This document shows positions 3,933 through 57,836 of a DNA stretch of 64,000 nucleotides, piece by piece. This DNA comes from Chiloscyllium plagiosum (lineage: Eukaryota), in assembly GCF_004010195.1 (NCBI RefSeq), contig NC_057726.1:19459321-19523320 (forward strand). The letters run 5' to 3'. Numbering within the stretch: position 1 is the stretch's first letter; each line of letters begins with the position of its first letter. The notes below the pieces were generated by a model that saw only the letters and a program-made list of their open reading frames with translations, did not search any database and had not been told where the DNA came from. The translations under genes were made by a program, and so were the position numbers.

Positions 3933-4138
3933 AAAGTGATGTCTGCAGATGCTGGAGATCAGAGCTGAAAATGTGTTGCTGGAAAAGCGCAGCAGGTCAG
4001 GCAGCATCCAGGGAACAGGAGAATCGACGTTTCGGGCATAAGCCCTTCTTCAGGGAGGGGTTATGCCCGAAACGTCGATTCTCCTGTTCCCTGGATGCTG
4101 CCTGACCTGCTGCGCTTTTCCAGCAACACATTTTCAGC
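3933..4138. mobile_element. Palindromic Penelope-derived element (family A) with a 15-bp TSD
   Basis: Perfect 79-bp inverted repeat (3963-4041 / 4061-4139); TSD tgttatacagagtag at 3918-3932 and 4139-4153. Confidence 0.85.
4021..4054 (-). ncRNA. Minimal type I hammerhead ribozyme motif
   Basis: Minus strand c-CTGAAGA-a-gggc-ttat-gccc-GAAAC-GTC-gattc. Confidence 0.55.
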
Positions 4139-6659
4139 TGTTATACAGAGTAGGTTAACAACAGTTGACAAAGTGTTTTACCATCTAATGGTTTCTATTG
4201 TTTTAACAGTTCTGAATTTATTAAGGATGCATGTTCTTTAATTTTGTCATTTTTCTATTAGTTTAAATATAAAGCCTTTAGGTGTTTTTGCTTATGTTTA
4301 AATGTTAGAAATACAGGAAATCTTTTGTTTGAAAATCAAATGTATATTTTAAACTAAAGATGAGTAGCCCAGATTAACTTAGGTTGAAATTTGTTTGGCA
4401 GAATTCATATGCATGTCATTAAATAAGTCATATTTTGCTTTAAAGATCATTGTGCAGATTTACTTGGACCTAAATTGCTGCAAATTTAATTAACTCCACG
4501 GGAAACATTTTCCACTGTTAAATACGCAAGAAATTAATTAATAAAGGGAATTTGGAGAATCACACAGTTACAGGGCTATGTCCTTTTATGGTGAACAGAT
4601 TGAGAAATTGTTTCCTTTCCAATTTGGTCATGATTCTTTAAATTTACTTGCTATCTACCCAGGTCTGGAGCTGGTACGAAACTGAGCACATCCTTTTCTG
4701 CATTGCTTTTGCTGTAGAGAACTTAGCTTCTGTACGTCCATGAACAGTGTGATTTTTAAAAAGCCTCCTATTATCATTAAACAACCACTTTCACTAAGTT
4801 GTCATGCTGTGCATAAAGTTATAGTAATTTATTGATTCAAATCAATATTTAGCAACTGCATTCTGCAAGTGACAGAAGAATATCAGAAAGTGAACAATGG
4901 CATTGTGTATCATGCAAAGTAAACCATTTAAAGTCTGTCCAGAAGAGGTGCAATTGATTTTTCAGACTTTATTATGAGTGATTGTGATTCTCAACATTGA
5001 CAGTGACAGGGCACCGCTGAAAGCATTTCTTGCACACGATGGCAACTCTATTGAGTCACAGAACAGGCTTTGCCAGAAAAGGTATCGATTTATGCAGCAG
5101 ATCCAACAGTATTAACACAAATGATTGATAACCAAAGAACAGATAAATCAGAAAAGCATCAAACAACATTTTGAAGAATGATCAAAAAGGAAGGATTGAA
5201 ACATCAAGTTTAGAAAATGCCTGACTAGTTAGCATAAGTAGTGGACATGGCAGAGGTTCAACTGGAATATCTTGACGATATTGAAAGTGGACCAAAGAGT
5301 GGGTGTGAAGTTATTAAATGAAGCTTTGACCTTGTTCCAGTTTTTTTTTCAGTTTCACTGCTCCTACTGTGCAAAAGGTCCTGTGTTCTCAAAAGTGTAA
5401 GCAATTTTATCTGCAAGATATTAAACTTACAAAGCATCTCTCTAATCAGCGTAACCTGGATTGTGGTCAAAAAAGGAAAATAAGGAGGGATTTAGGAGAA
5501 TGAACAGGAATAAGAACAACAACAGATAACGCAGCTTGGAACAAGACAAGTACTGAATCACTGTGAGAGCATAACATGGCGATGTGAAAGTAAATAAAGG
5601 GAGTAACTAAAGCAGAATAAAGAAAAGGCAGTCCAGGAACAACAGAAATGCATTAATAACCTTGAAGGGGGTAGCAGAAGATGGACAATATTCAGGATAA
5701 CAGTAATTAGCTGATTAGACTCATTACTATTCAGTATAAAGCAGTGCTTCCCAAAGTTCCTTCCGTTTTCACTCTGTTTTAATGAGTTGCACTTGACATA
5801 ACCCCCAATGGAAAATTGTTAGGAGGGTGCCACAAGGTAAGTTGCTAAGCAGGGTGGGGATTCAAAGAGCAGCAATAAAGGCCCAAAGAAACTTCTAAAC
5901 ACCATTTGCAGGCTCTACTGGTGTCAGTGATAAGGCCTCACAGCTCATTGATTTAATGGCCAAAGGCAAAAATAAAGTGCTTGTTTAAAGAGGCCTTATA
6001 ATCAATCATGGATTGTCAAATCAGTCTCCACTCCAAATCTACTGCAGCCTATTCCAACTTCTCGTCCCAAGGCAACAGAGAGGGTCACAAGCCACAGTGT
6101 GTGACTCCTTTTTAATAAGTGGTAAATATCAAAAGCCAGAATGCAATGTATCAATGGAAGGTTGCTCCAAAACCAGTCTAAAATGAGGTCTAATTAACAC
6201 AGAGGACAATTGGATCTCTTTTATAACAAATAAACATAATCAGATCAAAATCGATCTAAAAGGTGGTACAGAGCTCCTTACTTTTCCTGAAATGCTTGTA
6301 GCCAGATTATTGATGTCATTGGAGTTCAATAATGGTAGCTATTCCAGTGCTGACAGAGAACAATAAATGTTTAAAGTAGAGGTTAGGAGAGTTTCTGGGT
6401 ATTCAACACTATGAAGTAATTTTAATCATCTTGATTTGTCTGGTTAAATAGTCAATAAGGCGGATACAATGAGGAAGAACACCATGGGAACTACTGGTTT
6501 AATAAGGAATAGGGGGGGCTAAGGAATACAACTGTGAGGCATACAGGTACTCAGGGGCTGAGAGGTGAAATAAGGATGGTCACTCCTTTAGGGAAGATCC
6601 CACAATTCCAAGCTGGGGAATGCTGGCAGCAAATATTTTAAATGATCTGCTTTGAAGAA

Positions 6660-7200
6660 TATGGAATTGCAGAAAGTTACAGGACAGAAGGAAGCAAGCT
6701 GTCTGTGCTAGAACATTAAATATCCTCCCTATTTACTCGATCACAACCATTGATAAACTTGAGCACCTCTATTAAGTATCCTCTTAACCATTTCTGTTGC
6801 AAGGAGAACAATCCTAGCTTCTCTAGGATCTCCACTTGGCTGAAGTCCGTTATCCATATGAAAACAAAGAAGAGCTCTGATGAAGAGTCATCTAAACTCG
6901 AAACATGAGCTTGCTCTCTCTCCAGGGATGCTGCCTGACTCACTGTGATTTCCAGCGTTTTTTTTGCTCTCAGCACAGATTCCAGCATCTGCAATTACAG
7001 TCCCTCATCTATTTCCATTCGGATAACTTTTTTCTACAATATGTCCAAGGATTTGACATCCTTCTGAAATAGTGTGGTGCCCAGAATTAAACACAATATT
7101 CCCATAAAGCCTCACAATGATTTATGAAGCTTTAGAGCAATAGCTTTGCCCTTGTATCTCCTGTTTCTGTTTCTAAACTCCAAGGATTACGCATTCTTTT
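6660..7200 (-). mobile_element. CR1 3' fragment with a nested Penelope-derived arm
   Basis: LEKLGLFSLQQKWLRGYLIEVLK remnant. Confidence 0.7.
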
Positions 7201-8053: not shown

Positions 8054-9368
8054 CTAAGAATACATGTTGAAATAATGTTAAATAACATTTTGCACGCATT
8101 GCAGCAGAATTCCAATTCAGATGCAATGAATTAAAATATTTTTCCACTGTTTGTTTTTGTTTGTTTCTTTGTAAACTCCCTAGTTTCTACCCTTTCATTT
8201 CCAAGCTCCTCTTGGCAATAGATTGAATATTCAGCATTTGGTCTCATTCAGTTTGCACACTGATAATACACTTCACCTTAGAAAATAGAGGTCTATGTTT
8301 TTGAAAAGCAAAAGAATTGCTCATTTTTCCTTGAAAGATTAGGATGTCTAACTACTAACACCAAACACTACTTGCAAAATATACACAAGTGTTAGTAATT
8401 AGATTTGGACATCAGACTCTTTTTGTTTCACTGGCTAAATGGGTATTTTCTGATATAATACCTGTGACTTGTGCACACCATGGTAACTAATTATAAAGTT
8501 ACAATTCCTGGCTGAATCTCTCCTATTTTTACACATCAAAAAAGAACGGTTCTGTATATAGAAATACAACATTAACTGTCTAATTTAACAGTCAAAATGC
8601 TGAATGGAAATATACCAGCAAAGTTTTTTGTCTGAATAATTTTGAAATATTGGTTATTAATTGTTAATACAGTAGCAAGTACATGATACCAGCAGGAGAT
8701 TAGGCAAGTTTGTCAGTGTTAAAGCTATGCAATAATGTACCAGTAAACAGAAACTCTTGGGCAAGTTTGCATTTGTTATGAAAATAATTGTTGGCCAGTT
8801 CCTAAAAATTAGGTCCCTCCTTCTGTCCCCACTGACAATAAACAAAAGCTTCTCTTTATTTTCTCTCGCCAAGTTTCTCCCACTTCTCCTGAAAGCATTA
8901 ATTTGCTCCTGGGCCAGAGTGTGATGAATACTGGCTTCTCTCCAGCACCCACCTTCCCTCAACCTATTGTATAGCTGAGTTACTGAAGTCTGCCTTGTGG
9001 ATGCAGCTTTGGAGACCAAACAAAAAGCAGAAGAGGCCTCTCTTGAGAGGTGGACATGGGAAGCTTGACGGGGAGAGCGTATCTCCAGTTAGGGTGTGAT
9101 GTGGCAGTAGATGTCATCAAGGTTTCTCTTGTTCTCAGTCATAATCTTATCTACCTTTGGTCAGGAGTAAAGTGTACAATCCTAGCCTCAGTGGAGGGGC
9201 AAGGGGCTATTCCAACCACAGGAGGTAATTTTAATCTTGACCACATCCACTTTGCACACCAGTATGAGGCCAAAATCTTTTCACTTTTATAAAAGACAAT
9301 TGAAGTGCCTCATCTGATAAGTAAGAGCACAACGAACAACACAATATAAAATGGGGACTGGGTGTCAG

Positions 9369-9574
9369 TGTCGAGAGTGTGGTGCTGGAAAAGCACAGCA
9401 GGTCAGGCAGCATCTGAGGAGCAGGAGAATTGATGTTTCAGGTATAAGCCCTTCATCAGTAATTCCTGATGAAGGCCTTATGCCTGAAACGTCAATTCAC
9501 CTGATCCTCGGATGCTACCTGACCTGCTGTGCTTTTCCAGCACCACACTCTCAACTCTGATCCTCACTTTCTCC
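9369..9574. mobile_element. Palindromic Penelope-derived element (family A)
   Basis: Inverted arms centred at about 9462; degenerate 17-bp TSD at 9352-9368 / 9575-9591 (14/17 identical). Confidence 0.8.
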
Positions 9575-10349
9575 TAGGGGCTGCGTGTCAGACCTTGCTG
9601 GTTATGTAGTTCGATCAGGTCTGATCCACTGAGAGAATGCAGGAATCCTTTACCTAATTAGTTGGTTTGATTATGTTTCCTTCCATTTGGATGTCACCTC
9701 ATCTGTCCTCAGCAAAAATAAACTGAGAGCCCCATAGCCTCTCAATTCTGCTTTTACAGTTCATTCAATGCCAAAACAACTGTTAAAAAGTACCTGGCAG
9801 CTTAAAATGAAAGGTTCTGTTTAGAAACAAGCAGCTATTCATCGCAGAAGTGGATTACTCAAGCCAAAATCAACTGGATTAAAATTAGTAGACCAAAAAT
9901 TATATTAATTTAAGATGAGTAGGGCGACATTGAAATCTTTTACTCAGAGCAAATACAAAAATAAATTGGAAACCACATAACATGATTTTAACTGTGTCAG
10001 TTCTTTTTCTCGTGGCCATATTTATGTATGAACTAAGGTAAATTGTAAACTCCTTTAGTAAACTAGATATTGAGTAGCCAATATAAAACTGCAGTGCTGC
10101 TTATTCCAATGTTTGAAAAAGTGAATCCTTTCTAAGAAATGTAGTACCCTAATAAATTGTTAGAATGTTCAACTCAAGTAAATTTATACTGAGAACAAAA
10201 AAGAAATAACTATAAATGATTACAGCTAGTAATGATTTTGGTTAATGTATTTTTAAAATTTCTATCTTCAGCACTTTGCACAAATGCTATACGGAATTTT
10301 CTATTCAAAAATTCTATTTGACTACATTGGTTGGTATAAAATGGTATCT

Positions 10350-11339: not shown

Positions 11340-11865
11340 CAGTTTGAGAGTCATGGAGGATTACAGCTCAGAAAAAGGCCCTTCGGCTGATTGAGACTGC
11401 ACCAATCACCTAACTATTTTAATTCCACTTTCCAACACTTAGCCAATTCCTGATGAACAGCCTACGCCCAAAACGTCGATTCTCCAGCTCCTTGGATGCT
11501 GCCTGACCTGCTGTGCTTTCCCAGCACCACACTCTTGACCATAGTCCTCTATGCCTAGGCATTGCAAGTGCCCATCTAAATACTTCTTAAATTATATGAA
11601 GGCTTCAGCCTTTACCACCCTCCACAGGCAGTGAGTTGCAGATTCCCAGCACCCTTTGGGTGGAAAAGACGATTTCCTCTTAACCCCTCTAAATATCTAT
11701 CCATTACCTTAAATCTTTACCTCTTGGACATTGAACACTCCACCAAGGGGAGAAGTTCATTCCTTTCTACCCTGTCTATGCTCCTCATATTTTAGACATT
11801 GCAATCATGTCCGCCCACCTCAGTCTCCTCTGCTCCAAGGAAAGTAACCACAGTCTATTCAATGA
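11340..11865 (-). mobile_element. CR1 3' fragment with a nested Penelope-derived arm (11445-11539)
   Basis: LNRLWLLSLEQRRLR remnant plus the tail. Confidence 0.7.
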
Positions 11866-16688: not shown

Positions 16689-16799
16689 CTGAAACAACAG
16701 AGGCACAAATCTGTCACACCTATCACTTGCAAGTCATACTGCTGGTCAATAATTCACAAATACCTATTTAATACCACGCAAACATCTTCAAGTTATGAG

Positions 16800-20360: not shown

Positions 20361-20406
20361 TGCAAATAGTGTTAGACAATTTGGGTGCGTTGACCGTAAG
20401 CTCAGA

Positions 20407-20695
20407 CAGCATCCGAGGAGCAGGAGAATTGACATTTCAGGCATAAGCCCTTCATCAGGAATGAGGCTTGTTGGTTGGGGCGGGGGGGGGAGCTGTGAGA
20501 AAAATAGGAGGGGTGAGGCTGGGGTGAAGGTAGCTGAGATATCAATAGGTAGATGAAGGTAAGGAGAAGGTGATAGGTTGGAGAGGAGGATGGAGGGGAT
20601 AGGTGGGAAGGAAGATGAACAGGTAGGACCATTCCAAGAGGGTGGTGCCAAGTCTTTGACTCTGCTCTCCAACATCTGCAGTCGTCACTTTCTCC
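20407..20695. mobile_element. Penelope-derived element (family A) with purine-rich internal segment
   Basis: Same terminal sequence; TSD tgaccgtaagctcaga / tgaccataagatcaga at 20391-20406 / 20696-20711. Confidence 0.78.
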
Positions 20696-20822
20696 TGACC
20701 ATAAGATCAGATCCACTATCCTAACAAACATCCTGTATTGTTCTTGGATTGATCCAAACTTTAAAATATGGTATCTGTGTTCGGAAATAAGTACAATACA
20801 ATGAACCTGTGTAAGAGCTTAC

Positions 20823-22987: not shown

Positions 22988-23122
22988 AGAGGTAAAAACA
23001 ATGACTGCAGATGCTGGAAACCAGATTCTGGATCAGTGGTGCTGGAAGAGCACAGCAGTTCAGGCACCATCCGAGGACAGGCAAAATCGACGTTTCGGGC
23101 AAAAGCCCTTCATCAGGAATAA
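22988..23122 (-). mobile_element. Penelope-derived terminal repeat (family A variant) in CRISPLD2 intron 1
   Basis: gactgcagatgctgga..gtgctggaagagcacagcag..tcgacgtttcgggcaaaagcccttcatcagg. Confidence 0.8.
23084..23120 (-). ncRNA. Minimal type I hammerhead ribozyme motif
   Basis: Minus strand attc-CTGATGA-a-gggc-tttt-gccc-GAAAC-GTC-gatt: core intact, 4-bp stem II, palindromic ACGT stem III, GUC triplet; stem I is weak. Confidence 0.6.
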
Positions 23123-23406
23123 TGCCGAGTGCCGAGTGTGGGAAAGGTGTCTCCCGGAGTGAACCGCCTGGACATCCAGAGAACGGCCACGGGCGACGCC
23201 TGGGGAGGTCAGAGCAACTTTAAACTCTGAACCCAGAACTTAACCCTGAAGGAGTGTGGAAACCTTTCGCGTCCGGGAATGTTTCAGTAAATAATGCCAA
23301 ACAATTCCGCAGATGTTTACGTTCTGCCTAAAACAAGAACATTTTCGGATTGTAAACTAACAGCACACCCCCTTCCCCAACCACACACACACACACAATT
23401 ACTCAC

Positions 23407-23620: not shown

Positions 23621-23639
23621 CCGTCTCTCCAGAAGCCGG

Positions 23640-23780: not shown

Positions 23781-25286
23781 GCAAACATCTGTTGTCTTAA
23801 GTTCAGACTTTTTTCTTTCTCTCTGTCTGCTTCATTGCATCCATTCACATGTTTCACTGATGATGCTGCAGGTTTGCAAAACAAAAATAGCACACAAAAT
23901 CGCGCCTTTTAGCTTCAATGTGGGCAGTCGCAGGCTTTCCCCAGCAGGTATTGCATTGAGTTCCTGAAGTAGACAGGGAATTGGTAAGCAGAACTAAATA
24001 AAAACCGGAAGAACTGCGGATGCTGTAAACCAGAAACATTGGGGAGCTGTACTGCCTGTCCTCTTTACCCGCTGGTCTGTCCTCCCTGCCCAGGGGCGAA
24101 CTCACTGCCGATGCAAACACTTTCAACCCCATTAGTCTGAGCTTGGGGAGAAAGGAGGCATTGAACACTGCAGCTAAATCAATTCAACAGAGAAAAAAAA
24201 ATCAGCCGCGCACTTTCACAATAAATGGCTTGAAATGAAGAATAGGTGTCTTTTTTCTCAGGTGTTCCCAGGAAGGGTCGACACTGAACGTAACTCTTGA
24301 TTTCTCTCCACACATGCTGGCAGACCTGCTGAGCTTTTCTAGCAATTGCTGTTTTTGTATTTTTACTAACATGATTTTCATCCAATAATGCAACTGAGAG
24401 CAGGGGATTCCTTTGAATCGCACTGCATTGTAAATATAATTTATTAGTATTTATCCAGGTTTAGTGCACTGGAAATTGTGGTTCCGTTTCAGTAATGAGG
24501 TGGTCTTTACATTTTGACAGAGACAATTTTTAAAGGAATTTCAAATGCTCAAGTCTGCAGAGTACCCCCAGATGCAGGGGTTAACAATACCTACATCAGT
24601 CAGCATGAAGGGACTAGGAGAGAAAACGTTTTGCACAGGGATCGACTTAAATGATCTTACGGCTAATTCACAGCGCCCCTTATCCCAAGGTGATATTTGG
24701 AAATTTAATATCATGTTTTACAACAGCAAACGGATGGTCAACTTGAAGTTTTACTGTTAGATTTAAGTTATAATTTCCTTAAAATGCGAAGTTGTTTCTT
24801 TTTCAAACTTTCACATTTACATTTATAACGCCATGTCTCTGCATCTATCATTAAAAGAACGACTTCACAAATCTTTCGGTCTTTCTCCATTTATTCAGAG
24901 GTACAGTACTGCGATGAATAAAGCGTAAAGTATTGATGTCTTATAGAAACAAGTTAAAACTGAAATAATCATCTGTTTCGTGATATGTTGCCTGAAATAA
25001 TTATGCGTGGGTAAGGTTACATTTGGATCGAAAATGTACAGTCGGACAAGCCATATCGGTGGATGAGGTACTTGGAGTCCGTCAATAGTTTTGTTGAAGT
25101 AACTCTACAAGTTTCTGTTGGGGTGCCCTCTAGCGATAAATTCACGCTTTAAACTGGAACTTTGAAAATAAGTCAAAAGTTTTTCTGGTTGACTGACATT
25201 GTAATTGCAAACACACAGACGCCAGGAAAATGGTTCATGTGGAATAGTTGATCTGCTTTCCCAATCACAGAGAAACTTCCATGAAA

Positions 25287-25775
25287 GGGTGGCACATTGT
25301 CTAGGATGGTTGCCTCACATTACCAGGGAAAAGCAGGAGGCTGGAAGAACACAGCAAGCCAGGCATGTCAGACGGTGGAGGAGTCGCCGTTTCGGGTGTA
25401 ACCCTTCTTCAGTCCGAATGCTGCCTGGCTTGCTGTGTTCTTCCAGCCTCCTACCTGTCTACTTTGGATTTCAGCATCTGCAGTTTTTTAAATCTCTCAC
25501 AGCACCAGAGAACCAGGTTCGATTCCACATTCAGGGGGACCGTGTGCAGTTTGCCCATTCTCTCTGTGCCTGTGTGGGTTTCCTCTGGGTGCGCTAGTTT
25601 CCTCCCACAGTCCAAAGATGTGTGAGCTAGGTGGATTAGCCATACTAAATTGAGCATAACATGCAGGCTAGATGGATTAGCCACAAGAAATATAGAGATT
25701 TGGATACTCTTCAGAGAGTCAGTGTGAACTCGATGGGCCGAATGGCCTGCTTCCATACTATAGAGATTCTATGAT
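25287..25775 (+). mobile_element. HE1-like SINE interrupted by a Penelope-derived insert
   Basis: Head gggtggcaca at 25287; resumes at 25496 with ggttcgattcc, the V-domain and a CR1-like tail gggccgaatggcctg. Confidence 0.75.
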
Positions 25776-27964
25776 ACTAAGCTGAGGTTCTGAGACAGGG
25801 AAAACACAGATTGTTTAATTGGGTTCACATCGGTTTTAACTATACTGGGTATTGTAATGCCAAAGGGCACACACACAAATCAGAAGTACTATTTAACATT
25901 ATCATGTCGGGCTCTGGGCAGCAAGCAGGTAAGTCCAGTGAATCGTGTAGTTATTTTAAAGATAATACAGACATGACAGGTCCAAATAAGAACCATATCA
26001 GACTTGTAACATTAACTCTGTTTCTTGCCCCACAGATGTTGCCAAACCTGTTGAGCTTCTGCAACACTTTTTGTGTTTATATTGTAGGTCTACTTGTGTG
26101 TTACAAGGCTCTGGGAATCTCTGAATAGTTAGTCTGTTGTACTTATTATCTCAATCCGCTGCCCTAAGTGGAGTTATTTGTTTTGTACTTTAACAAGATT
26201 TTGCCCACGATTTATCTCTGATTATTACAGACTTAAATTGACAAAATCAAGCTAATATAACACATGAATTAGAAGCAGGTGGAGGCCTTTCAGCCCTTCA
26301 AACTTGTATGACCATTCTATACCATTATGGTTGATCTGACTGTAGCCTTAAATCCACTTTTCTACCCCCGATACACAGAAACCAGGGGCAGGAGTTGACC
26401 CTTCAAGTCTGCTTCACCGTCCAATATGATCATCGCTGACTAATTCAGTGCCCTGTTCCTGCTTTATTCCCCGTACCTTTTGATCTCTTTCGCCCTAAGA
26501 ATTATGTCAAACTCCTCCTTGAAAATATTCAATGTTTTGACCTCAACTGCTTTCTATGGCAGAGAACACCATAAGCTCACCACTCTCTTAGTGAAGAAAG
26601 TTCTCCACAGTTAATTCCTAAATAGACTACCTCACATACTTAGACCATGACCCTTGGTTCTGGACTCAACGATCATCAGGAACATCTTTCTAAAGATACC
26701 CTTCCAAAAACTTGGGCTACCTCTGTCTTAAAAATATTCAGTGCTCCTACCTCCACCGTTCTCTGGCATAAAGAATTCCACAGATTCTCAACTTGCTGAG
26801 AGAAAAGAATTCTCTTTGGCACTGTCTTCAGTGGGATACCCATTATGTTAAAATTATGTTCTTTAGTTCTAGCTTTCCTATAAGGGTCAGCACCTTCTCA
26901 GCAGTCACCCTATCAAGTTCTCACAGGATCTTACCAATGCCAGCAAGATCATCTTTAATTCTCCTCAAAACATATCTTTGTGACAATTGAAAGAATAAAG
27001 AAATCCACTATTTATAAAACTGTTTATGTAAGTACTAAAAGTGAATAATTAGGCAGGAAGTCTCAATATGTGGATCTTTAAAATCTTGAAACTTCTTATA
27101 AGATTCAAAATATTTGATTTTTTAGACTAGGACTGTTTTATTTTATAAATTATACTTATATTGCGATTCATTGGGAAAATATGACTATCCCCAACTTTAG
27201 CAAAAGCCCAATTGCACATTACCATACTCCTCTTTTTTCCTTTTCTTAATCATCTATGTAGACTTTTCTCAATATTAACATGGTCATTGTGACATTCTCT
27301 AACTTTAGTAATTCAGCATGGTCACAATGCTTTGCATAAACATTCTCCAATTCCCTGTCCTAAATTTCTTGCATTAAGTTCTTGCCGTCTTCTATGAGAC
27401 ATTTCAAGATTAGAAAACACTTTTTTTGTCTACTGTGTCTCATCCTTTCGTATGTATAAATATCTCTGACAGGCCTCATTTCGAATGGGTGATTCATGGA
27501 CTTATTGCAAAGCCCAGATACATGCCAGTGATCAATTCAAACTACTTACTATGCAACTAGTGTCCTACACAGGGGCATCAGCGATGACATATTTCAGCTA
27601 TAGACCTAACCTTTCAAGATTATGACTGGAAGATCCTACTGGCCCCACAGGGACCAGATCAAATTAAAATTTAAACTGTTGACCTATGTATAACTTCCAC
27701 ACAATTCACAGTACGTGGACGCCTATAATTATTATAATGACTTGCAACATGTAGCATAATTTTGTGCAATTTTAGATAATGCAGAAATAAATCAGGTTCC
27801 ATCAAAATCTTTAGTTCAATCTTCAAATAGCTGATAACTTATGTCTTCAGTAACATTTTCCAAATCCTGTTCCTATACATTCATATCCAGCTCCCTCTTT
27901 GTAAAGTGCTTTTGCATGTTCTATTTTAGTAAAGGTGCTCTTTGGTAATGAAGATGGTAGCCAT

Positions 27965-28290: not shown

Positions 28291-28309
28291 AAAAATGTGG
28301 AGATGCCAG

Positions 28310-28485
28310 GGGTGGACAAATGTTGCACGACATAAGATTATAGTCCAACAGGTTTATTTAAAATCACAAGCTTTCAGAGCACTGCTCTTCGTCAGGTGAA
28401 GGAACAAAGGAGAAATGCTCTGAAAGCTTGTGATTTTAAATAAACATTTTGGACCATAACCCAGTGTTATGTGATTTCTGACTTG
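28310..28485. mobile_element. Palindromic Penelope-derived element (family C)
   Basis: ttatagtccaacaggtttattt..cacaagctttcagagc arm and its inverted copy; related copies at 54783-55235 and 61118-61195. Confidence 0.75.
28364..28399 (-). ncRNA. Minimal type I hammerhead ribozyme motif
   Basis: Minus strand tcac-CTGACGA-agagc-agt-gctct-GAAAGCTT-gtga: 4-bp stem I, 5-bp stem II, palindromic AGCT stem III. Confidence 0.65.
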
Positions 28486-28929
28486 GCAGTGAAGTATTGG
28501 TATGAATTACCAAAACAGAAGAAGTTATAAACCAGATTATTTTGTATTTTACTCAGTTCAAGTTCTCAGTTTAGTGTTGCCCCTGCCTACTAAGTTATAA
28601 AATTCTAAATTAAAAGTTATAAATCCTGGGTTTTGAGGAAGAGTCACTGGACCCGAAATATTAACTCTGATCTCTCTCCACAGATGCTGCCAGATTTGCT
28701 GAGCATGAATAGGAAGGGTTTGGAGGGATATGGGCCGGGTGCTGGCAGGTGAGACTAGGGTTGGGATATCTGGTCGGCATGGAAGGGTTGGACCGAAGGG
28801 TCTGTTTCCATGCTGTGCATCTCTATGACTCTATAACTTGTATTTCATACTCCTGTTGTGGAGCACATTTTGACTTTTTATATGCAATACATACATTGCA
28901 ATACATAATTGACTCGGTTGCTAAAGGGT

Positions 28930-30966: not shown

Positions 30967-30992
30967 AACTAAAACAACTAAAATTCCCTCAT

Positions 30993-31363: not shown

Positions 31364-31665
31364 AAAATTCCTTCATTCTGGCCACCATGTGGTAAATGAC
31401 ATTTTTTTTCTAAAGTGTAGCACTAAAAACTGGACACAATACGATCATTGAAGTCTTATTCTTATTTTTATTCTAATTCTTAATAAAGATTCAGTTTAAC
31501 TTCCTTACTTTTGCCGAAGATTTTCAACAAAGTGCCTCATAGGAGACCATTGTTAACAAAGCATCAGGAACCAAGGTAGGTATCCTTACTGGCAGGATGT
31601 GATTAAAGGGGACCCACAGAAAATTGTGTTGGGGCCTCACTGATTCACCATATTTGTTAGCAACT

Positions 31666-32293: not shown

Positions 32294-34900
32294 GAGCAGG
32301 TTTAGGCCATTTGGCCCATCAAGTCTGCTCCATCATTTGATCATGGTTGATGCATTTCTCAACCCCATTCTCCTACCTTCTCTGTGTAACCCTTGATCAC
32401 CTTACTCATTAAGAAGCTAGCTATCTCTGTCTTACATACACTCAATGACTTGGTCTCCACAGTCCTCTGCAGCAATGAGTTACACAGATTCATCATTGTC
32501 TGGCTGCAGACATTCCTCCTCATCTCAGCTGTAAAGGCTTGTCCCTTCATTCTGATGCTCTGCCTTGGGACATCTTCTCCATGTCCACTTTGACAGTCAG
32601 TATTCTGTAAGTTTCAATCAGATCCCTCTTCATCCTTCTAAAGTCCATTGAATACAGACCCAGAGTCCTCCACTGCTCCTCACATGACAAGCCCTTCATC
32701 CCTGCGATCATTCTCGTAAAGCTCCTCTGGACCCCCTCCAATGCCAACAGTTTTACCTTAGATATGGGCCCAAAGATCTGTTCACAATATTCCAAATACA
32801 GTCTGACCAGAGCCTTATACTCCTCAGCAGTACATTTCTGCTCTTGTGTGTTAGACCTCTTGAAATCAATGTTAACATTGTATTTGCTTTTCTAATTGCT
32901 AACTGAAACTCCATGTTAACTTTAGGAGATTTCTGAACAAGGACTCCGAAGTGCTTTGTGCTTCAGATTTCCAATTTTTTCCCTGTTTAGAAAATAGTCT
33001 TTGCTTCTATTGTTCCTACAAAAATGCAGAGCCTCATGCTTTCCCACATTGTATTTCATCTGCCACTTCTTTGCCCGTTCTCCTAGCCAAAGTCCATCTG
33101 CAGCCTCCCCATTTCTTCAAAACTACCAGTCCCTTCACCTAACTTTGCATCATCTGCAAACATATCAAGAATGCCCTTAGTTCCTTCTTCCAGATCATCA
33201 TTGTACAACCTCTTCTGTCAGGCAAAAGCTTAACACTCATATCAAAAGATTTAAGCACAAAGTCTTCCCCATTGTTATTAGAATTCTGGATGGATCTCTC
33301 AAATTTTAAATTTAAAAAATGTTTCACTGTATCTACATGTATGTATGTGATGATAAGAAATCAAGTAAGAAAACATCACTAGGGGAACACTGACACCTGC
33401 GGAACTCCACTGGTCACTAGCTGCCATCCTGTAAAAGACCCCTTTATGCCTTCTCTCTGCCTTCTGTCAGTCAGCCAATCCTCGATCCATGCCAGTACCT
33501 TTCCCCCTACACCTTGAGCTCTTATCTTGCTTAGCAGCCTCCTGTGCAGCACCTTATCAAAGGCCTTATGAAAATAGATCTTGTCTACTGGCTCCCCTTC
33601 ACCTAAGTTATTTGTTACCTCCTTAAAGAATTCTAACAGATTTGTCAGGCATGACCTCCTGCTCCTCAGATGCTGCCTGGCTGGCTGTGCTTTTTCTAGC
33701 ATTACGCTTTTAGACTCTGACTCGCCAGCATCTGCAGTCCTCACTTTCTCCTCCATTTGACAATGTCATATTGACTCAGCCCTATTTTACCATGCACTTC
33801 CAAGTACTCTTATCGTTATAAGCAATCTTATCTTTAATAATGGACTCTAAAATCTTACCAACGATTAAGATCAAGCTAACCAGCCTATTGTTTCCTGTCT
33901 TCTCCCTCCCTCCCTTCTTATACAGAGTTTTATAAGCTATTTCCCAGTCCTCTGGGACCCTCTTTGACTCCAGTGGTTCCTGAACAATCATCTCCAATAC
34001 CTCTAATCTCCTCCACTATCTCCTTCAGAACCCTGAGGTGTAGCCCATCTGACCTGGGTGATTTATCCACCTTCAGACCTTTTCAGTCTCAACAGCACCT
34101 TCTCCTTCATGATATCCGCTACACTCACCTCTGTCTCCTGACTCTTTTGAAGTACTGGTTTGTTGCTGGCATTTTCCATCTGATTCAATCTTCTCCCTCA
34201 ACTGCAGGATGAATTCTATCGTATTATGGGCAGTGTTCCCAAGGGGGTCCTTTACCTTCAGCTCCCTAAGTCTGCCTCATTACACATCAATAAGTCCAGA
34301 GTTACCTGTCGTCCAGTGGGCTCAACCACAAGCTGCTCTGAAACAATCCAATCATGGACATTTCCCAATTTCCTTTTCTTGAGGTCTGCTACCAACCTGA
34401 TTTTCCAAATCCACTTGCATATTGCAGTCCCCCATGATTATTGAAATAGTATCTTTCTTATATGCTTTTTCTATTTCCTGATTTATTTTCTGTTCCTCAT
34501 CCTGATTACCGTTCAGAGTCCCGTACACAACTCTCACCAAGGTCTTTATTCCTTTGTTGTTCCTCAACTCTGTCTCCACACAGATTCTATGCATTCCGAA
34601 TCTATATCACTTCTTGCAATCAATGTAATTGCGTTTCCTGCTAACAGTGCAGCACATCCCCCACCGCACAGCCTTTCGTTAGGACGTATGTTCTGGAATA
34701 TTTAGTTCCCAGCTGATTCCCTTGATGCCACGTCTCTGTGATACCTACATCATTGTACCTGCCACTTACAATCTGTGCTGTATGTTCATTTGTTTTGTAT
34801 ACTGTGTGTATTTAAGTACAACACCCTCAGTCCTGCTTTGACTGCCTCCCTTCTCAGAGTTGTCCCCTTATCCACTGTGCCTGAAATTAGATTCCTGACC
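32285..34900 (-). mobile_element. Older CR1 LINE (3' tail, RT, endonuclease), fragmented, with inserts
   Basis: ORF pieces SCLTNLLEFF..KAFDKV..VTSGVPQ, VPEDW..NNRLVSL and IIMGDCN; the CR1 3' tail is at about 32290-32520. Confidence 0.88.
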
Positions 34901-35779
34901 CTTGCCATGCTTTGTCATATTACTTGTTTTGGAAATGTTAACCTCTGCTAACCCCTTCCCTCCTCCCACCCCCCAAATAAACATATATCCATAATTTTCC
35001 ATGCAGCTGAACCCACACCCCCACTATTTAGTTTAAAGCCCTATTCACAGCCTTTCTGATGAAGGGCCCCAGTCCAAAATATCGATTTTCTTGCTCCTCA
35101 GATGCTGCCTGACCTGCTGTGCTTTTCCAGCACCACACACTCAACTCTGATCTCCAGCATCTGCAGACCTCACTATCCCCTATCCACAGGCCTAGTTATG
35201 CAGTTTGCAAGGACTCTAATCCCTGCAATATTTAGTTGGGAGCCCATCCCATTGGAACAGGATCCTCCTTCCACATTTGGAGTACTGTCAGCAGTTCTGG
35301 GTTGCGCAGCCCAGGAAAAATACACTGAACTTGGAGGGGGCTCAGTATGAATTGATGAGAATGACAACAAAAAGGCAAAATACAGCAGAAGCTGAAAATC
35401 TGAACTGAAAAAGAGAAAATGCTAGACATACTCGGCAGGACACTCAGCATGCGTGGAGAACAACACAGTTAAATGGCAGATTTTTCCCAGGCAGTAGCTG
35501 ACCTGAGCAATTGAGAGACATTTGGGAAGGTACAGTGAGAATGGAAAGATGAGATAGTCAACATTTTAGCAAAAACAAAATCAGATCTTTTTCTTCAGGG
35601 TTCTACAACCAGGTGAGAATCTGCTAGTGAATGGAGACAGCCTATTTGCACACCTTTGAAATGTATTTTTTTTTACCTAATCTGACCTCAGTTGTATGCA
35701 AGTTCCTACTTTCACACACAGCAGAGAGAGACCAGAGGCACCAATTCACAACATGAAATTCAAAACTGTTACCTATCTC

Positions 35780-45683: not shown

Positions 45684-47071
45684 CTGAAAAGAGAAAGGAA
45701 AATGTTGTGGGACAATGAAAAGAAATAGGATCTTTCAAAACTGACATGCTATAGTCAATAACAGTCAACATTCTGAACAGATTTTTTATAATCAGTTTTA
45801 TAAATACAAATAGATATTATATATATATATATATTTTACAAAGTATAGTATTACCATACTTCAAGTTTTTTCTTCAGTTATGATAAAATCACAAAGACAA
45901 GAAAAATCTTCTAGCAAATTTAGCTGGTGCTTCCATAGAGAGACCTACAGTTCAATCCCAATTCTGGATCAGTAACTTATAGTTTCACCTTAGGTAACAC
46001 TTTTATGAATGGCTTGAGTGGCGGATTTATGAACTTTATCACTATTCTATTTCTGTTATGATAATCAATCAGGTACTTCAAAGCAAGGCAATTTCTTGCA
46101 ACCTAGATATTTTGGGTCAATCTGTTCAGACACATTACGATGCATGCCTACAGAGGATGGGACTTGAACCCAAGCCTACTGGCTCAGAGGTCTACACCCT
46201 ACAACTACACCCTAACAGCCTTCCTGTTCTTGGGCAAATCTGTGATTTTAGTGCATAATAGTTGATAGTCTAGAAATAGTGTCACTGAAATCAGCATTTC
46301 ACTCCTCCTCAAATGCATCTTTCTATCAGCAAACTGCGCAAGACTGCCTTAAAGTTAAGTTTTTGCACACTCTTCCACAACTTCTTGAATTTAAACATAA
46401 GACAAAAACTACCATATCCAGTCAAACATCTAAGGATTATAGAACAGAAGTCTTGTAGCAGCATCCAGAGAGGAGAGTGGGTGCGTGGGGGGGGAGGGGG
46501 GGGGGGGGAGGTGAATCCGCTCCCCTCTTTTTAATCATCTGTGCAAGATAAGTAGGGGCGTGGAGGGGGAAGGTGGCTGATTGAGTAGGGGGTGATAATG
46601 ATAGGTCAGAGGAGTGTAGAACGGATAGGTGGGAATGAAGGTGAACAGATAAGATACTGCCACGTTGGAGGGTTGAATCTGGGATGAGTGGGGGGAGATG
46701 AGGAAACTGGTAAAGTCACCTTCAAGCAGCTTTACAGCATTGTGCCCAAAGTTCTAGCACCACGACTGTGCCAAGTCTAGATGGGCAGCAGGCAGTCACT
46801 TCAGGTTATTTGATTAAAATGTAAAAATGCCAAAAGCTATAACATATGTCTTTTTTTTTTAAATCCTCCATATGCCCGTTGATTACATTTGATTATAATT
46901 TTATTAGTCTCTGGCTAAAAATATTTGTTCCTTTGCGATTTGAAAGCATCAGATATCAATTAAACGACTATATGTTGCATGTATAAAGTACTATTTTTCT
47001 CTTTCCCAGTAGGTGTTTGCACTTCAAGGAAACTATGGTTCTAAAAACTGAAATAAATGTAGATGCTTTAA

Positions 47072-47240
47072 ATCAGAAACAGAAGTTGCTCGAAAAGCTC
47101 AGCAGGTTGGCAGCATCTGTGAAGAAAAATCAGAGTTAATGTTTTGGGTCCGGTGACCATTCCTCAGTTCACCAGACATGAAACATTAACTGTGATTTCT
47201 CTTCTCAGATGCTACCAGATCGGCTGAGCTCTTCCAACTA
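47072..47240. mobile_element. Palindromic Penelope-derived element (family D)
   Basis: gctcagcagg..gcagcatctg..gagttaatgtttt arm and its inverse; related single arms at about 24260-24360, 25995-26085, 28630-28705 and 35365-35475. Confidence 0.7.
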
Positions 47241-48589
47241 TGGTCCTAACATCTGTTGTACAGAAACATCCGTTGTACAGAAACATCCACAGTGGATGAG
47301 TGTAAAAGTTAAATAAAAGCATCTGCAAGAATTGTTTGTTGCCAGCAGGACCACGATCAGGTACTTCAAAAGAAACTGCATTTTTCTGTGCTTCAGAATA
47401 CAAATCCATGAAGAGGCTGCAGTAGTAAATTGTAAAGTTGGGGTAAACTAACGCTGACCAGGTTGCATTTCACCCAGCAAGCAGTGTTACTGGCCTTAAA
47501 CAAAATAATTATATTTACCTACATCTTAATCCATCTTCAGGATGATTTAAAGTGATTCAGTGATTTACTTTTCACAAAGGTAAGTAATAAAGGTAAACAC
47601 AATAACCAACTGATAAACGTATTCAAATAAATCAAGTTACATGATCTACTAAACTGTTTCTCTCATGTGCAATTTGAAGCAAAAACAAATTAATAACAGC
47701 TCATGCCCAATGTTCCCTGTAATATTTTTTCCCCATCTATGTGCAGAATGTGTACCAATATCAAGGTAATGCACAGATATGCATTCGCAGTGTAAACATG
47801 AAATCTATATTTGAGTTATCACAGGTGTGTAAAAATGAATGTACCCCAAGTAATGGATATGGCAAAATGCTAATCCACAAATCAAATTTAGTAAATCTCA
47901 ATTTTAAATTTACCATAGCACTATTTGAACTCATGACCCCTCTGTTTTAAATGCAGCATAATTATTAAACGACCATTCATTTTCATATCGTAGTTTGTAC
48001 TTTAGTCAGCTGACAAGTCAAATTAGTAGCGGTGGCGAAAGACAAGGATGTTATGTTTCAATTTGACAAGGTCAAAATTCAAACAGCTAAATAGGCTTGT
48101 TCATAAAATTGATAGCTGTAAAAGGCAACTTATTTCACTTCAGAGTGATTTCTTTACTTAAAAAGTGCTACGAGTAGTGAGAGGAAGATTGTTTAATTTC
48201 TTCACTTCAACAAATATAATCAGAGGTGAAGTGTCTCTAACTTTAAAGAGTTTTTTTGCACTGGACTATGAAAGTCAGAGACAGTTTCTATGTAAGTTAA
48301 ACGAACATTAAAGGAGAAAAACTACATCCAGGAACTGGCAAGGAGAGAACTGTGGTAAGAATGATTAAGAACAGTTGTTGAGGTAGCTTTTACAAAAGCA
48401 ATGACATTTATTTCACCTAAAATATTTTTATTTAATATTCATGGAGTTTAAATGTAATATAAAATTTCACAATTTTTAAACTAAACTGTCACTCAATGAC
48501 CAAAGTGAATTTTGTAGAGCTAGTATACGGAAATACGTAGTTTAAAACGCTCCATGAGACAACCTCACAACCTTTTCAATATTGTTTTG

Positions 48590-54236: not shown

Positions 54237-55237
54237 AATCATTAGCAATAGGACAGAAAAAAATTAAGTTATGCAGCACATGCATTTAACTAATACCCAC
54301 TATTTAGATGTGAACTTATGACTTCCTGAGGGTCCTTGCATATTGATGAGGAAACTCATTACTTTATCACAAAATACTAAACATGATTTCATTTTAACCT
54401 GAAACTACTTGGTATTTCTAAACATCCTTAAGACAACTCCTAGCGCACCTATTAAAAGATGTCTTATTTTTGGTTGCCTGAAGGCAACACCAATGTTTTG
54501 TTTCAAAGCAATTCTCTCCATATCGAAAGCCTGTTGGTATGTCAGACATTTCTGGAGCTTCTCACAATCAGCACACCTTGCAGATTTAGCAGTTTATAAC
54601 TAGCTTTGTAAATAAGCACTGGATTCATAAAGGAAACATGACAGCCTCAAAATAGTTTGCATGTTAATTCCAAATGGTTATTATTTTCAGGTTGCTGGCC
54701 AAAGAGATTTAAGAGCGCAACTGAACAGAACAAAAGATGACTTCATCTCTTTGATCTGTGCCCAGGTTATTTCAAAGTTTAAAATCACACAACAGGTTAT
54801 AGTCCAACAGGTTTATTTGAAATCATTAGCTTTCAGAGTGCCGCTCCTTCATCAGGTGGTTGTGGAGTATAAAATCATAAGACATGGAATTTATACCAAA
54901 GTTTACGGTGTGATGCAACTGAAATTATATATTGAAAAAGACCTGGATTGTCTGTTAAGTCTCTCACCTTGGGCATGACCATGTTGGTTTCAGTTCTTTC
55001 ATATGTAAATCCCAGAACTTTTTTTAAAAGAAGTTACATTCTCAAGTGAACTTTAACAATAGGTGCCACGTTGTCTCAGAAAATGCACTGAAGGTGTGAG
55101 GTGCCCTGTGTGAGACTGTCAGTGCCCCAATGTTCACACTGATTCTATTTCTAAAAAAGGTATTTATGGAATCTTGCATGTTGCAGTTTTTGAGAAAATA
55201 AAACATAATTGTGCGAGTACTAATTCTCCCCACAAAC

Positions 55238-56375: not shown

Positions 56376-56884
56376 TGTGGCTGTACGCCACTTGTCCCTC
56401 TAAGTAGTTGGACGCGGACCTTTTTTTTTGAGAATGGTGGCAATATACCACAAAGTAATTTTAATGGTAAGACAAAATAGACTAGTGAAATAATTAGCCA
56501 GAAGATACAGAACAAGAGCCAAGAGATTACACAAAAAAAAAGGTCAGCTCACACTTGAAGAAATGCATTTAATGCCAGTCACTACATCACAAAGAACATA
56601 TACAAACACCAAAGACATGTACAGCACAGAAACATGTACATCTGTGACTCTATGACTCGAGGAAACCAGAAATTTTAAGGCAATTACACGATATTTAGCA
56701 TGGGAACATCACTTTAATTCACCTAGACTAATAGCAGGAGGCTCACCACAGAACTTATGAAAAACGTTTTGCACGAATCGAAACACAAATCTTTGAGATA
56801 ATCTTCGATGACAGTAAAGATTGGAGAATTAGATACACAAGTTCAACAAGCAAAGTCAAAGACTGCAGTTAAGGACTCCCCCAC

Positions 56885-57836
56885 CACAGGGAAAAGACCT
56901 TGCCCATTTACCCAATCCACGCCCCTCATGATTTTCTTTCAAGTTTCACAACATCTTTCCGATAAGGAGACCTGAACTGCAATATTCCAACAGTGGCCTA
57001 ACCAATTTCCTGTACAGCCGCAACATGACCATGCAACTCCTGTCCTCAATACTCTGACCAATAAAGGAGAAAGTGAGGACTGCAGATGCTGGAGATCAGA
57101 GCTGAAAACGTGTTGCTGGAAAAGCGCAGCAGGTCAGGCAACATCCAAGAAGCAGGAGAATCGATGTTTCAGGCATGAGCCCTTCTTCAGGAATGAGGAA
57201 AGTGCGCCAAGCAGGCTAAGATAAAAGGTAGGGAGGAGGGACTTGGGGGAGAGGCGTTGGAAATGCAAGAGGTGGGAGGAGGTTAAGGCGAGGGTGATAG
57301 GCCGGAGTGGGGGTGGGGGTGGAGAGGTCAGGAAGAAGATTGCAGGTTAGGAAGGTGGTGCTGAGTTCGAGGGTTGGGACTGAGACAAGGTGGGGGGAGG
57401 GGAAATGAGGAAACTGGAGAAGTCTGAGTTCATCCCTTGTGGTTGAAGGCGCTCTTCCTCCAGCCGTCGTGTTGCTATGGTCTGGCGATGGAGGAGTCCA
57501 AGGACCTGCATGTCCTTGGTGGAGTAAGACTTCTCCAGTTTCCTCATTTCCCCAAGTCCCTCCTCCCTACCTTTTATCTTAGCCTGCTTGGCACACTTTC
57601 CTCATTCCTGAAGAAGGGCTCATGTCCGAAACATCGATTCTCCTGCTCCTTGGATGCTGCCTGACCTGCTGCGCTTTTCCAGCAACACATTTTCAACTCT
57701 GACCAATAAAGGAAAACATCCCAAACGCCTGCTTCCCTATCCAATCTACCTGCAACTCTACTTTCAAGGAGCTATGATCTTACACTCCAAGGTCTCTTTG
57801 TTAAGCAACACTCGCTAGGACCTTACCATTAAGTGT
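56885..57836 (-). mobile_element. CR1 fragment split by a Penelope-derived insertion
   Basis: The CR1 sequence ..caatactctgaccaataaagga at 57047-57068 resumes at 57696. Confidence 0.8.
57069..57695. mobile_element. Penelope-like element remnant: inverted termini plus the C-terminal end of a GIY-YIG endonuclease
   Basis: Perfect 18-bp TSD actctgaccaataaagga (57051-57068 / 57696-57713). The minus ORF VLGLLHRQTIATRRLEEERLQPQGMNSDF resembles the RxxxE..L.P.GxN terminus of Penelope GIY-YIG domains. Confidence 0.8.

What the first reader, a model, noticed from the sequence alone, without database searches (positions are those of the whole stretch)
3933..57695. Several distinct short-repeat families carry a covarying minimal hammerhead-ribozyme fold
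Seen: at least four families with different sequences converge on CTGANGA-(a)-stem II-GAA-[palindromic ANN'T]-H-stem I. Family A has gggc/gccc with ACGT-C (23084-23120, 4021-4054, 9466-9493, 57604-57640). Family B has gagt/actc with stem I agct/agct (6873-6911; copy at 31050-31090). Family C has gagc/gctc with AGCT-T/A and stem I cac/gtg (28364-28399, 54823-54858). Family D has g(a/g)gtc/gaccc with gtt/aac (28630-28667, 47134-47167). Decayed cores occur at 11445-11480, 25383-25414, 35055-35085, 37683-37715 and 42412-42445. Established: Penelope-like retroelements carry minimal hammerheads with a palindromic stem III that cleave as dimers. Inference: these are non-autonomous, retrozyme/SINE-like derivatives of several shark Penelope lineages at roughly one per 3-4 kb here. 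This is the best candidate for an under-described system in the window, although the general phenomenon is known.
Basis: partly seen in the sequence, partly recalled or inferred. Interest (0 to 1): 0.75.

Follow-up and report, generated by a model that had tools for sequence, protein, structure and literature searches.

The report
Hammerhead-tipped Penelope-element end fragments, shark
This stretch of shark DNA holds about twenty short, mostly decayed end-pieces of Penelope-like jumping genes, most carrying the small hammerhead ribozyme motif already known from such elements; they were likely copied from RNA the ribozyme had not cut, so this is an abundant new example of a known kind, not a new system.

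Summary
The motifs are real. A minimal hammerhead descriptor gives 9 hits against 0.095 in shuffles, and the stems covary between families (best of 120 permutations). 13 of the 15 cited sites belong to repeat families; 37683 and 42412 do not. Families A, B and D, plus a variant E, share one downstream tail, so they are homologous, not convergent; only C is separate. One family-A copy runs upstream into a Penelope-like GIY-YIG C-terminus whose homologues carry the Neptune-type linker. Eight loci are head-to-head pairs. Seven have 13-18 nt target duplications, and seven carry the roughly 35-nt tail on one arm only, which is the published architecture of these elements. Short copies share subfamilies with long ones, are not tandem here, and start at the front edge of the ribozyme rather than at its cut site. 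They are 5'-truncated insertions, not retrozymes. Only 2 copies pass the strict descriptor, and cleavage is untested. The scan already reported this on other pieces of this genome. The one open lead is that the 5' ends may mark a transcription start at an initiator-like motif.

The parts
3918..4153 (.). Family A head-to-head pair (3933-4138): minus arm with hammerhead (C3 at 4053) and long tail; plus arm starting at stem II with short tail; perfect 15-nt TSD at 3918-3932 and 4139-4153
6872..6995 (+). Family B single arm, hammerhead C3 6877 (position 17 is G, predicted inactive), long tail; no TSD found
9354..9591 (.). Family A head-to-head pair, C3 at 9459(-) and 9466(+); both arms start at -4 and overlap by about 2 nt at the centre; short and long tail; TSD 13/15
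11446..11540 (+). Family A single arm, decayed core (AAA for GAA), short tail; no TSD found
20391..20711 (.). Family A long pair: minus arm with hammerhead (C3 20458) and about 160 nt of upstream pLTR; plus arm is tail only; TSD 14/16
22990..23126 (-). Family A variant, best-preserved hammerhead (C3 23116), passes the strict descriptor; possible extension of stem I through an internal loop (MFE only)
24261..24362 (+). Family D arm, decayed core
25314..25512 (.). Family E head-to-head pair (C3 25412, minus); TSD 14/17
25990..26079 (+). Family D arm, core lost
28326..28484 (.). Family C head-to-head pair (C3 28395, minus; passes the strict descriptor; AGCT palindrome); no TSD found
28629..28709 (+). 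Family D arm (C3 changed to T), 3' part cut by a neighbouring repeat
30980..31376 (.). Family B head-to-head pair (C3 31085, minus, decayed); right arm interrupted at about 31150-31291; TSD 12/13
33656..33752 (+). Family A tail-only arm, starting about 4 nt downstream of the predicted cut site
35039..35189 (+). Family A single arm (C3 35056, decayed), long tail; TSD 11/12
35375..35490 (-). Old, strongly decayed arm of the A/B/D tail type
46458..46723 (-). PLE 3' fragment: ORF-end and pLTR sequence homologous to the 57190 upstream region, hammerhead absent, short tail remnant
47031..47249 (.). Family D head-to-head pair (C3 47167, minus, decayed); TSD 13/14
54771..54860 (-). Family C arm (C3 54855); upstream extent not determined, TSD not tested
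57051..57713 (.). Family A long head-to-head pair, C3 at 57190(-) and 57608(+), long and short tail; perfect 18-nt TSD at 57051-57068 and 57696-57713
57353..57529 (-). C-terminus of the PLE ORF (GIY-YIG region), with an internal deletion; 25/27 identical to Chiloscyllium punctatum RT+EN protein P0002
57159..57194 (-). Minimal type I hammerhead of the long arm; predicted cut between 57163 and 57162
57189..57196 (-). Initiator-like motif (consensus recalled); its +1 A is at 57194, 4 nt before C3, where 5' ends recur
57065..57101 (-). Optional 33-37 nt tail between the two 3' end sites; holds the 3' strand of a conserved but non-covarying helix
61120..61183 (-). Family C arm, decayed core

Best explanation
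These are 3'-end fragments of shark Penelope-like retroelements (pseudo-LTR end, minimal hammerhead motif and tail), likely laid down as 5'-truncated copies by the element's own reverse transcriptase/GIY-YIG protein from RNA the ribozyme had likely not cut. SHOWN: each arm has a sharp 3' end at one of two sites about 35 nt apart; target duplications of 12-18 nt; head-to-head pairs with the tail on one arm; 5' ends crowded at the front edge of the hammerhead; one arm continuous with a GIY-YIG C-terminus. INFERRED: the protein makes a staggered cut and primes cDNA from each target 3'-OH at internal start sites, as Poseidon_Ac does in vitro (PMC11167929). Each cDNA runs towards the RNA 5' end, and the two are joined, often through a few bases of microhomology, so each palindrome is built at insertion. 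The cDNAs keep the whole core upstream of the cut site, so the template was uncleaved. The hammerhead is predicted to be inactive as a monomer and to need a partner through its ACGT or AGCT palindrome, or the element's protein. The genomic copies then decay, mostly at CpG. Least certain: the 5' pile-up marks the element's transcription start at an initiator-like motif 4 nt before the core.
For: Protein link: P0001 matches P0002 (RT YIDD motif plus GIY-YIG) at 25/27; 72 of 78 homologues carry the CX2-5CxxC linker, which PMC8557442 gives for Neptune and Nematis. Architecture: 8 inverted pairs; TSDs at 7 of 8, with scores reached by at most 1% of 300 random boundary pairs; 7 of 8 carry the CAGCATC-bearing tail on one arm only. 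This matches PMC8557442 Fig. 2 and PMC3846280. Ends: of 13 family-A arms, 7 start between -15 and +7 of C3, 4 extend far upstream, and 2 start downstream (+32, +78); the cut site is at +27/+28. The long end lies 120 nt from A9, against 111-118 nt into the ORF for Poseidon_Ac. Reads: a sharp end at 57065-57066 with unlike, AT-rich flanks (1905+821 loose ends in X4, 1877+1105 in X14); RNA-read depth falls about 7-8-fold across the hammerhead; listed joints and pieces recur at 57192-57198; the 33-37 nt tail is seen duplicated; majority alleles restore the ACGT palindrome (1061/1365) and the G10.1-C11.1 pair (992/1254). Subfamilies mix long and short copies: 4053 is 91-93% identical to 57190/57608, and 9459/9466 are 90-92% identical to 20458.
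Against: No genome was available, so the end statistics rest on 20 loci and on truncated read tables (117 joints and 1414 loose ends not shown). Only family A is tied to an ORF. A profile of 60 PLE proteins found no significant ORF remnant in the window; the 57529 piece scored E=5.4. No TSD was found at 8 of 10 single-arm loci or at the family C pair; boundaries were set by eye and two loci were not tested. The depth drop upstream of the hammerhead may partly reflect subfamily divergence at the 80% threshold, and in contigs it is only about 3-fold. Rare tandem 129-nt joints exist (7 contigs in X4, 14 in X14), so retrozyme-like dimers are not absent from these genomes. One to three arms start near the cut site (33656 and decayed D-type arms). 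The initiator-like motif is common in this pyrimidine-rich region (6 matches in 306 nt) and is absent before family C. RNA reads show no pile-up of starts anywhere (table 6).
Confidence: 0.8

Rival explanations
1. The 130-nt units are a true non-autonomous, SINE-like family: short copies are transcribed, by host read-through or an internal promoter, and re-mobilised in trans by the PLE protein.
For: Short copies far outnumber long ones (read depth 7-8 times higher in the hammerhead and tail). 5' ends are clustered. The unit holds the putative protein-binding and initiation region, and solo pLTRs act in trans in Adineta (PMC3846280, passages).
Against: Short copies group with long copies of the same subfamily. 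Junctions differ per locus. No tRNA-type head or poly(A) tail was seen by eye (not scanned). Read-through templates would carry host 5' flanks, which are not shared among the window's copies.
Confidence: 0.13
2. They are non-LTR retrozymes: self-cleavage of tandem transcripts gives unit-length or circular RNAs that are reverse-transcribed and inserted.
For: Head-to-tail joints of a 129-nt unit (57194 to 57066) occur in 7 and 14 contigs of two runs. A 2026 preprint (10.64898/2026.07.22.740005) reports retrozymes in one chondrichthyan and derives retrozymes from pLTRs.
Against: 0 of 20 loci in the window are tandem. Unit ends are at -4 and +125, not at the cut site (+27/+28). No read pile-up at the cut site (weak test: 3'-type single-cell library).
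Confidence: 0.04
3. The inverted pairs arise by self-priming on an antisense template or by later DNA rearrangement, not by priming from both target strands.
For: Proposed for PLE inverted junctions in PMC3846280 (Discussion passage). Some junctions contain extra or deleted sequence (28399-28406, 47168-47176, 57530-57541).
Against: Both tail ends abut a TSD copy, with short target-element microhomologies read by eye (up to 7 nt at 57696, 4 nt at 9365 and 57065). The tail is on one arm only. Poseidon_Ac extends both strands in vitro (PMC11167929). This rival concerns one step only and leaves PLE membership intact.
Confidence: 0.15
4. The motifs are chance hairpins inside unrelated repeats.
For: CTGANGA alone is within the shuffle range; 2 of the 15 cited sites are at chance level; no Rfam hammerhead hit.
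Against: 9 vs 0.095 descriptor hits; 169 of 176 core positions kept; compensatory stems across five families; position in a PLE pLTR.
Confidence: 0.01

Closest known systems
Minimal hammerheads (min-HHR) in pLTRs of metazoan Penelope-like elements (Cervera & De la Pena 2014, PMC4209133)
   Same: [quoted passage not shown]
   Different: Sharks are not named in the text parts and supplements I searched. Helix II is 4-5 bp here, against 7-8 bp in Schistosoma. Local density (20 loci in 64 kb) is far above what 4,000-9,000 motifs per genome (coelacanth, Xenopus) imply, though those counts are descriptor hits and this is one window.
Insertion architecture of endonuclease-bearing PLEs (Craig et al. 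2021, PMC8557442; Arkhipova et al. 2013, PMC3846280)
   Same: Heavy 5' truncation, inverted 5'-truncated arm, 30-40 bp tail on one end only, TSD, microhomology junctions, Inr-like motif in the pLTR.
   Different: TSDs here are 12-18 nt against 8-10 in Adineta. Most inserts are cut down to 95-130 nt per arm, with 5' ends at the hammerhead's front edge; I did not see this clustering described in the passages read.
Poseidon_Ac of the green anole (Frangieh et al. 2024, PMC11167929)
   Same: Two internal 3' ends bounding the tail, distal end about 120 nt from A9, AT-rich targets, extension of both strands, uncleaved RNA as template.
   Different: Family A is Neptune-type by its linker, not Poseidon. 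There is no ATG at A9. Short target-template microhomologies are seen here, whereas in vitro initiation was reported as non-homologous.
Animal non-LTR retrozymes (preprint 10.64898/2026.07.22.740005; Cervera & de la Pena 2020, PMC7229834, seen as a search listing only)
   Same: Non-coding, type I hammerhead, derived from PLE pLTRs.
   Different: Retrozymes are defined as tandem repeats with a hammerhead in each unit; none of the 20 loci is tandem, and only rare tandem joints appear in the reads.

Membership tests
Minimal type I hammerhead of PLEs | Core CUGANGA / GAAA / UH above background | tested here: met
   9 vs 0.095 hits; 169/176 core positions; 9 of 16 arms with an intact core
Minimal type I hammerhead of PLEs | Covarying helices I and II, extra nucleotide after A9, G10.1-C11.1 | tested here: met
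   39/45 paired, best of 120 permutations; extra A in 15 of 16 arms; hand-registered alignment; family A helix I is weak
Minimal type I hammerhead of PLEs | Palindromic helix III core | tested here: met
   ACGT in A and E, CpG-decayed forms in B and D, AGCT in C; majority reads restore ACGT in family A
Minimal type I hammerhead of PLEs | Self-cleavage as a dimer or with protein help | not testable with these tools
   Cofolding of two copies did not return the active dimer as the MFE; energy models do not capture the core
Endonuclease-bearing Penelope-like element | RT plus C-terminal GIY-YIG ORF upstream of the pLTR | tested here: met
   Family A only: C-terminus at 57529-57446, 25/27 to P0002, which has an RT motif and a sub-threshold Pfam GIY-YIG hit
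Endonuclease-bearing Penelope-like element | ORF linkage for families B, C, D and E | tested here: inconclusive
   No ORF remnant found; B, D and E are linked through the shared tail
Endonuclease-bearing Penelope-like element | Inverted 5'-truncated arm, 30-40 bp tail on one end, TSD | tested here: met
   8 pairs, 7 with one-sided tail, 7 with TSD
Neptune clade of PLEs | CX2-5CxxC linker between RT and EN | tested here: inconclusive
   72 of 78 homologues have it; P0002 keeps only the second half; the motif is shared with Nematis (PMC8557442)
Neptune clade of PLEs | Placement in an RT tree with reference clades | not tested
Non-LTR retrozyme | Tandem units, each with a hammerhead | tested here: not met
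   0 of 20 window loci; rare tandem joints in 7 and 14 contigs
Non-LTR retrozyme | Unit bounded by the cleavage site or circular RNA | tested here: not met
   Ends at about -4 and +87 to +125; cut at +27/+28; circular RNA not testable
SINE-like non-autonomous family | Own master lineage distinct from the autonomous element | tested here: inconclusive
   Short and long copies interleave among 9 family-A arms; too few copies for a tree

The most novel reading that the evidence does not exclude
The shark stubs are a fossil map of the PLE replication intermediate. Transcription starts at an initiator 4 nt before the hammerhead core, so helix I's 5' strand is the first bases of the RNA. Internal priming about 90-125 nt downstream copies this 5' module straight to the RNA end, from uncleaved RNA and often from both target strands at once. 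Occasional template jumps give tandem 129-nt dimers, the seeds of retrozymes. This would explain solitary min-HHRs, head-to-head inversions and retrozyme birth in one mechanism.
Probability: 0.35. Interest if true: 0.5.

Novelty: new member of a known kind. Interest (0 to 1): 0.24.

Why it matters
As a discovery it matters little: hammerheads in PLE ends, their solitary truncated copies and the inverted-arm and tail architecture are all published. Its use is as material. A very abundant vertebrate set of insertions with clean TSDs lets one test in vivo what was shown only in vitro for one anole element: priming on both strands, two internal start sites and an uncleaved template. It also bears on why PLEs keep a hammerhead at all, which is still open (PMC8557442, PMC11167929). 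If the 5' pile-up is a transcription start, it would place the PLE promoter relative to the ribozyme.

Tried and rejected
No whole genome was held, so there was no genome-wide count. The Rfam scan gave no hammerhead hit, only miRNA-like hairpin matches below gathering score that come from the inverted pairs. A metagenome scan with a 19-nt tail motif gave 48 matches, 0 of them with the element. No RNA holder was listed for the stretch; RNA run X22 laid 0 reads (no test). X21 comes from an organism holding 0.77 of the words and may not be the window's species; 94% of its laid reads run on into unlike sequence, so they are likely host transcripts. PDB sequence search with P0002 gave 0 hits. Pfam on the 58-aa ORF end gave 0. 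A PLE profile over six frames found nothing significant. RNAalifold on the MAFFT alignment found only a 4-bp tail hairpin. My first structure string was mis-registered and is discarded. The corrected tail helix is 88.5% paired but has 0 two-sided changes and does not beat shuffles, so it is conserved, not proven. Whole-unit folding z-scores are unremarkable for 7 of 8 arms. The TSD-like match at 28628/28716 was rejected because it overlaps the core and a neighbouring repeat. 37683 and 42412 were rejected as family members. Lunse et al. 2017 was not held and is known only through review PMC6765202. Searches for a shark-specific description found none: 'Penelope shark Neptune retrotransposon' gave 0 papers; searches listed none by title; no shark terms in the supplements of PMC4209133 (one file not searched). 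The preprint's supplements, Repbase and Dfam could not be seen and may hold these families.
Full report
1. Observation. The cited sites contain the described motifs. A descriptor with both catalytic boxes and a stem II of at least 3 pairs gives 9 hits against a mean of 0.095 in 200 dinucleotide shuffles. Adding a palindromic stem III and a stem I of at least 2 pairs leaves 2 hits (23116, 28395) against 0.01. The first box alone is not enriched (55 vs mean 40, max 60). Rfam gave no hammerhead match at E<=5. In 16 hand-registered arms, 169 of 176 core positions match and 9 arms have an intact core. With one copy for each of five families, own-family partners pair at 39 of 45 positions, the best of 120 permutations. 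I left the decayed arms without a registrable core (24267, 25990, 35490, 61113) and the coreless partner arms out of that count. Stem II reads GGGC/GCCC (A), GGGT/ACCC (E), GAGT/ACTC (B), GGGTC/GACCC (D, pieced together from decayed copies) and GGAGC/GCTCC (C, likewise). Stem I is AGCT/AGCT (B), GTT/AAC (D), CAC/GTG (C), and only TC/GA plus a mismatch and one pair (A). Two of the 15 cited sites, 37683 and 42412, match no family seed and are at chance level (2.25 core-plus-stem motifs expected per window).

2. What the repeats are. nhmmer with 10 window seeds links A, B, D and E through a shared downstream tail, and leaves C separate. The families are therefore diverged homologues, not convergent forms. 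The arm at 57065-57530 (minus) continues upstream through a pyrimidine-rich region into a reading frame. That frame matches Chiloscyllium punctatum protein P0002 at 25/27 residues. P0002 has an RT YIDD motif and a GIY-YIG region (Pfam hit below cutoff). 72 of its 78 longer homologues carry a CX2-5CxxC linker, which PMC8557442 (passages) assigns to Neptune and Nematis; the 2026 preprint (parts 1 and 3 and passages) found only Neptune and Poseidon in vertebrates. Family A is thus a Neptune-type PLE by inference; no tree was built. No ORF remnant was found for B-E.

3. Anatomy. I count 20 loci. Eight are head-to-head pairs. Seven of these have target-site duplications of 13-18 nt, two of them perfect (15 and 18 nt), with scores reached by at most 1% of 300 random boundary pairs. 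Of 10 single-arm loci tested, one has a clear TSD, one match was rejected and 8 have none; two loci were not tested. In 7 of 8 pairs one arm ends at a distal site (+125 from C3 in family A) and the other ends earlier (+87 to +90 in three A pairs, about +51 in one); family C's arms are unequal but its tail is not defined. Of 13 family-A arms, 7 begin between -15 and +7 of C3 (local-alignment limits; by eye most stop at -1 to -4), 4 run far upstream and 2 begin downstream (+32, +78). The predicted cut lies between +27 and +28. Short and long copies share subfamilies, and the centres of the palindromes differ from locus to locus.

4. Reads. Four runs were laid on 57050-57530. Two DNA-type contig sets laid 161,753 and 96,754 contigs, so the family is very abundant; summed depth is not a copy number. 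Loose ends pile up at 57065-57067 with unlike, AT-rich flanks. In RNA run X21 (3,366 reads laid; possibly another species; 94% running on into unlike sequence) depth is about 1,500-1,900 over the tail and 220-235 just upstream of the hammerhead. Majority alleles restore the ACGT palindrome (1061 of 1365) and the G10.1-C11.1 pair (992 of 1254), so the window's breaks are mostly CpG decay of an intact ancestor. Listed joints and pieces recur at 57192-57198, show duplication of a 33-37 nt tail, and include a head-to-tail 129-nt unit in 7 and 14 contigs. Most rows of these tables are not shown. No place where many molecules begin or end was found, which is a weak test with this library. X22 laid nothing.

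5. Mechanism. The anatomy fits target-primed reverse transcription by the autonomous element's protein from internal start sites. PMC11167929 (parts 1-2 read) showed for Poseidon_Ac cleavage and extension of both strands, two start sites bounding the tail 111-118 nt into the ORF, AT-rich targets, protein-assisted hammerhead cleavage, and unprocessed RNA as the main template. Here the distal end is 120 nt from A9. I infer that each target strand primes one arm and that the cDNAs are joined at their ends. Because the arms keep the core upstream of the cut, the template was not cleaved. Why they stop at the ribozyme's front edge is open. All four family-A arms with intact upstream sequence have an initiator-like match (consensus recalled) with +1 at -4, but such matches occur 6 times in 306 nt upstream and family C has none. 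An RT stall at the ribozyme, or a short non-autonomous master, remains possible. The tail holds a 9-bp helix and a 5-bp hairpin kept across A, B, D and E, without two-sided changes; it is a candidate protein-binding element only.

6. Comparison. PMC4209133 (parts 1-2 read; 2 supplements searched, one not searchable) describes min-HHRs with the extra nucleotide, G10.1-C11.1, a palindromic centre, many families per genome, mostly solitary copies from truncated PLEs, opposite-strand pairs, and low dimer-dependent activity. PMC8557442 and PMC3846280 (passages) describe the inverted arm, one-sided tail, TSD and Inr-like motif. PMC2377424 (passages) places the Drosophila start site 46 bp before an intron whose end, per PMC4209133, maps to helix I, so a start directly at helix I is not the rule. 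Retrozymes as defined in the 2026 preprint need tandem units; that test fails here. PMC6765202 (passages) summarises dimer cleavage and cites Lunse et al., which I could not read. My searches found no shark-specific description, but the preprint includes one chondrichthyan, and its supplements, Repbase and Dfam were not seen.

7. Earlier scan notes. After reaching this reading (note) I found that the scan had reported the same thing on many other pieces of this genome. These are unchecked AI notes and are not counted as support.

8. Verdict. A real, abundant, mostly decayed set of PLE end fragments with minimal hammerheads: a new member of a known kind. Interest 0.24. The reading in which the 5' ends map the transcription start and record two-strand priming on uncleaved RNA has probability about 0.35 and would merit 0.5.

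Noticed in passing
window:45496-45816 (-): Last coding exon of a ubiquitin-specific protease (Pfam UCH, E 1.7e-9; USP hits in PDB). It looks like USP10; the name is recalled, not from a call.
   Followed up: partly
window:22111-22542 (-) and 16472-16753 (-): Exons of a secreted CAP/CRISP-domain gene (weak PDB hit, E 0.7). It looks like CRISPLD2, the USP10 neighbour in mammals (recalled). Hammerhead arms lie on both strands around these exons, with no obvious loss of host-sense copies (not tested).
   Followed up: partly
window:57066-57194, joints: Head-to-tail repeats of the 129-nt hammerhead-tail unit in 7 (X4) and 14 (X14) contigs; candidate retrozyme-like dimers elsewhere in these genomes.
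   Followed up: no
window:23081-23126 (-): The best-preserved hammerhead may extend helix I through an internal loop (GGCA/UGCC in the MFE, z -2.5 for the arm), unlike the other family-A copies; its upstream flank matches nothing else in the window.
   Followed up: partly
window:22964-22976 and 23174-23186: A 13-nt direct repeat brackets the 23116 copy, offset from its ends; possibly a host repeat or a larger insertion unit.
   Followed up: no
window:46458-46723 (-): PLE ORF-end and pLTR fragment joined to a tail remnant with the hammerhead missing.
   Followed up: partly
window:33379-33765, 38782-40300, 53646-56385, 59616-60275: Many LINE-type reverse-transcriptase fragments (weak Pfam RVT_1 hits; repeats), likely CR1-type (label recalled); the 57051-57713 pair sits inside one. 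The two N runs (40171-40179, 59935-59945) lie in these repeats.
   Followed up: no
window:103-170, 30887-30954, 31838-31905: A further dispersed repeat family (D17), likely a SINE (recalled), unrelated to the hammerhead elements.
   Followed up: no
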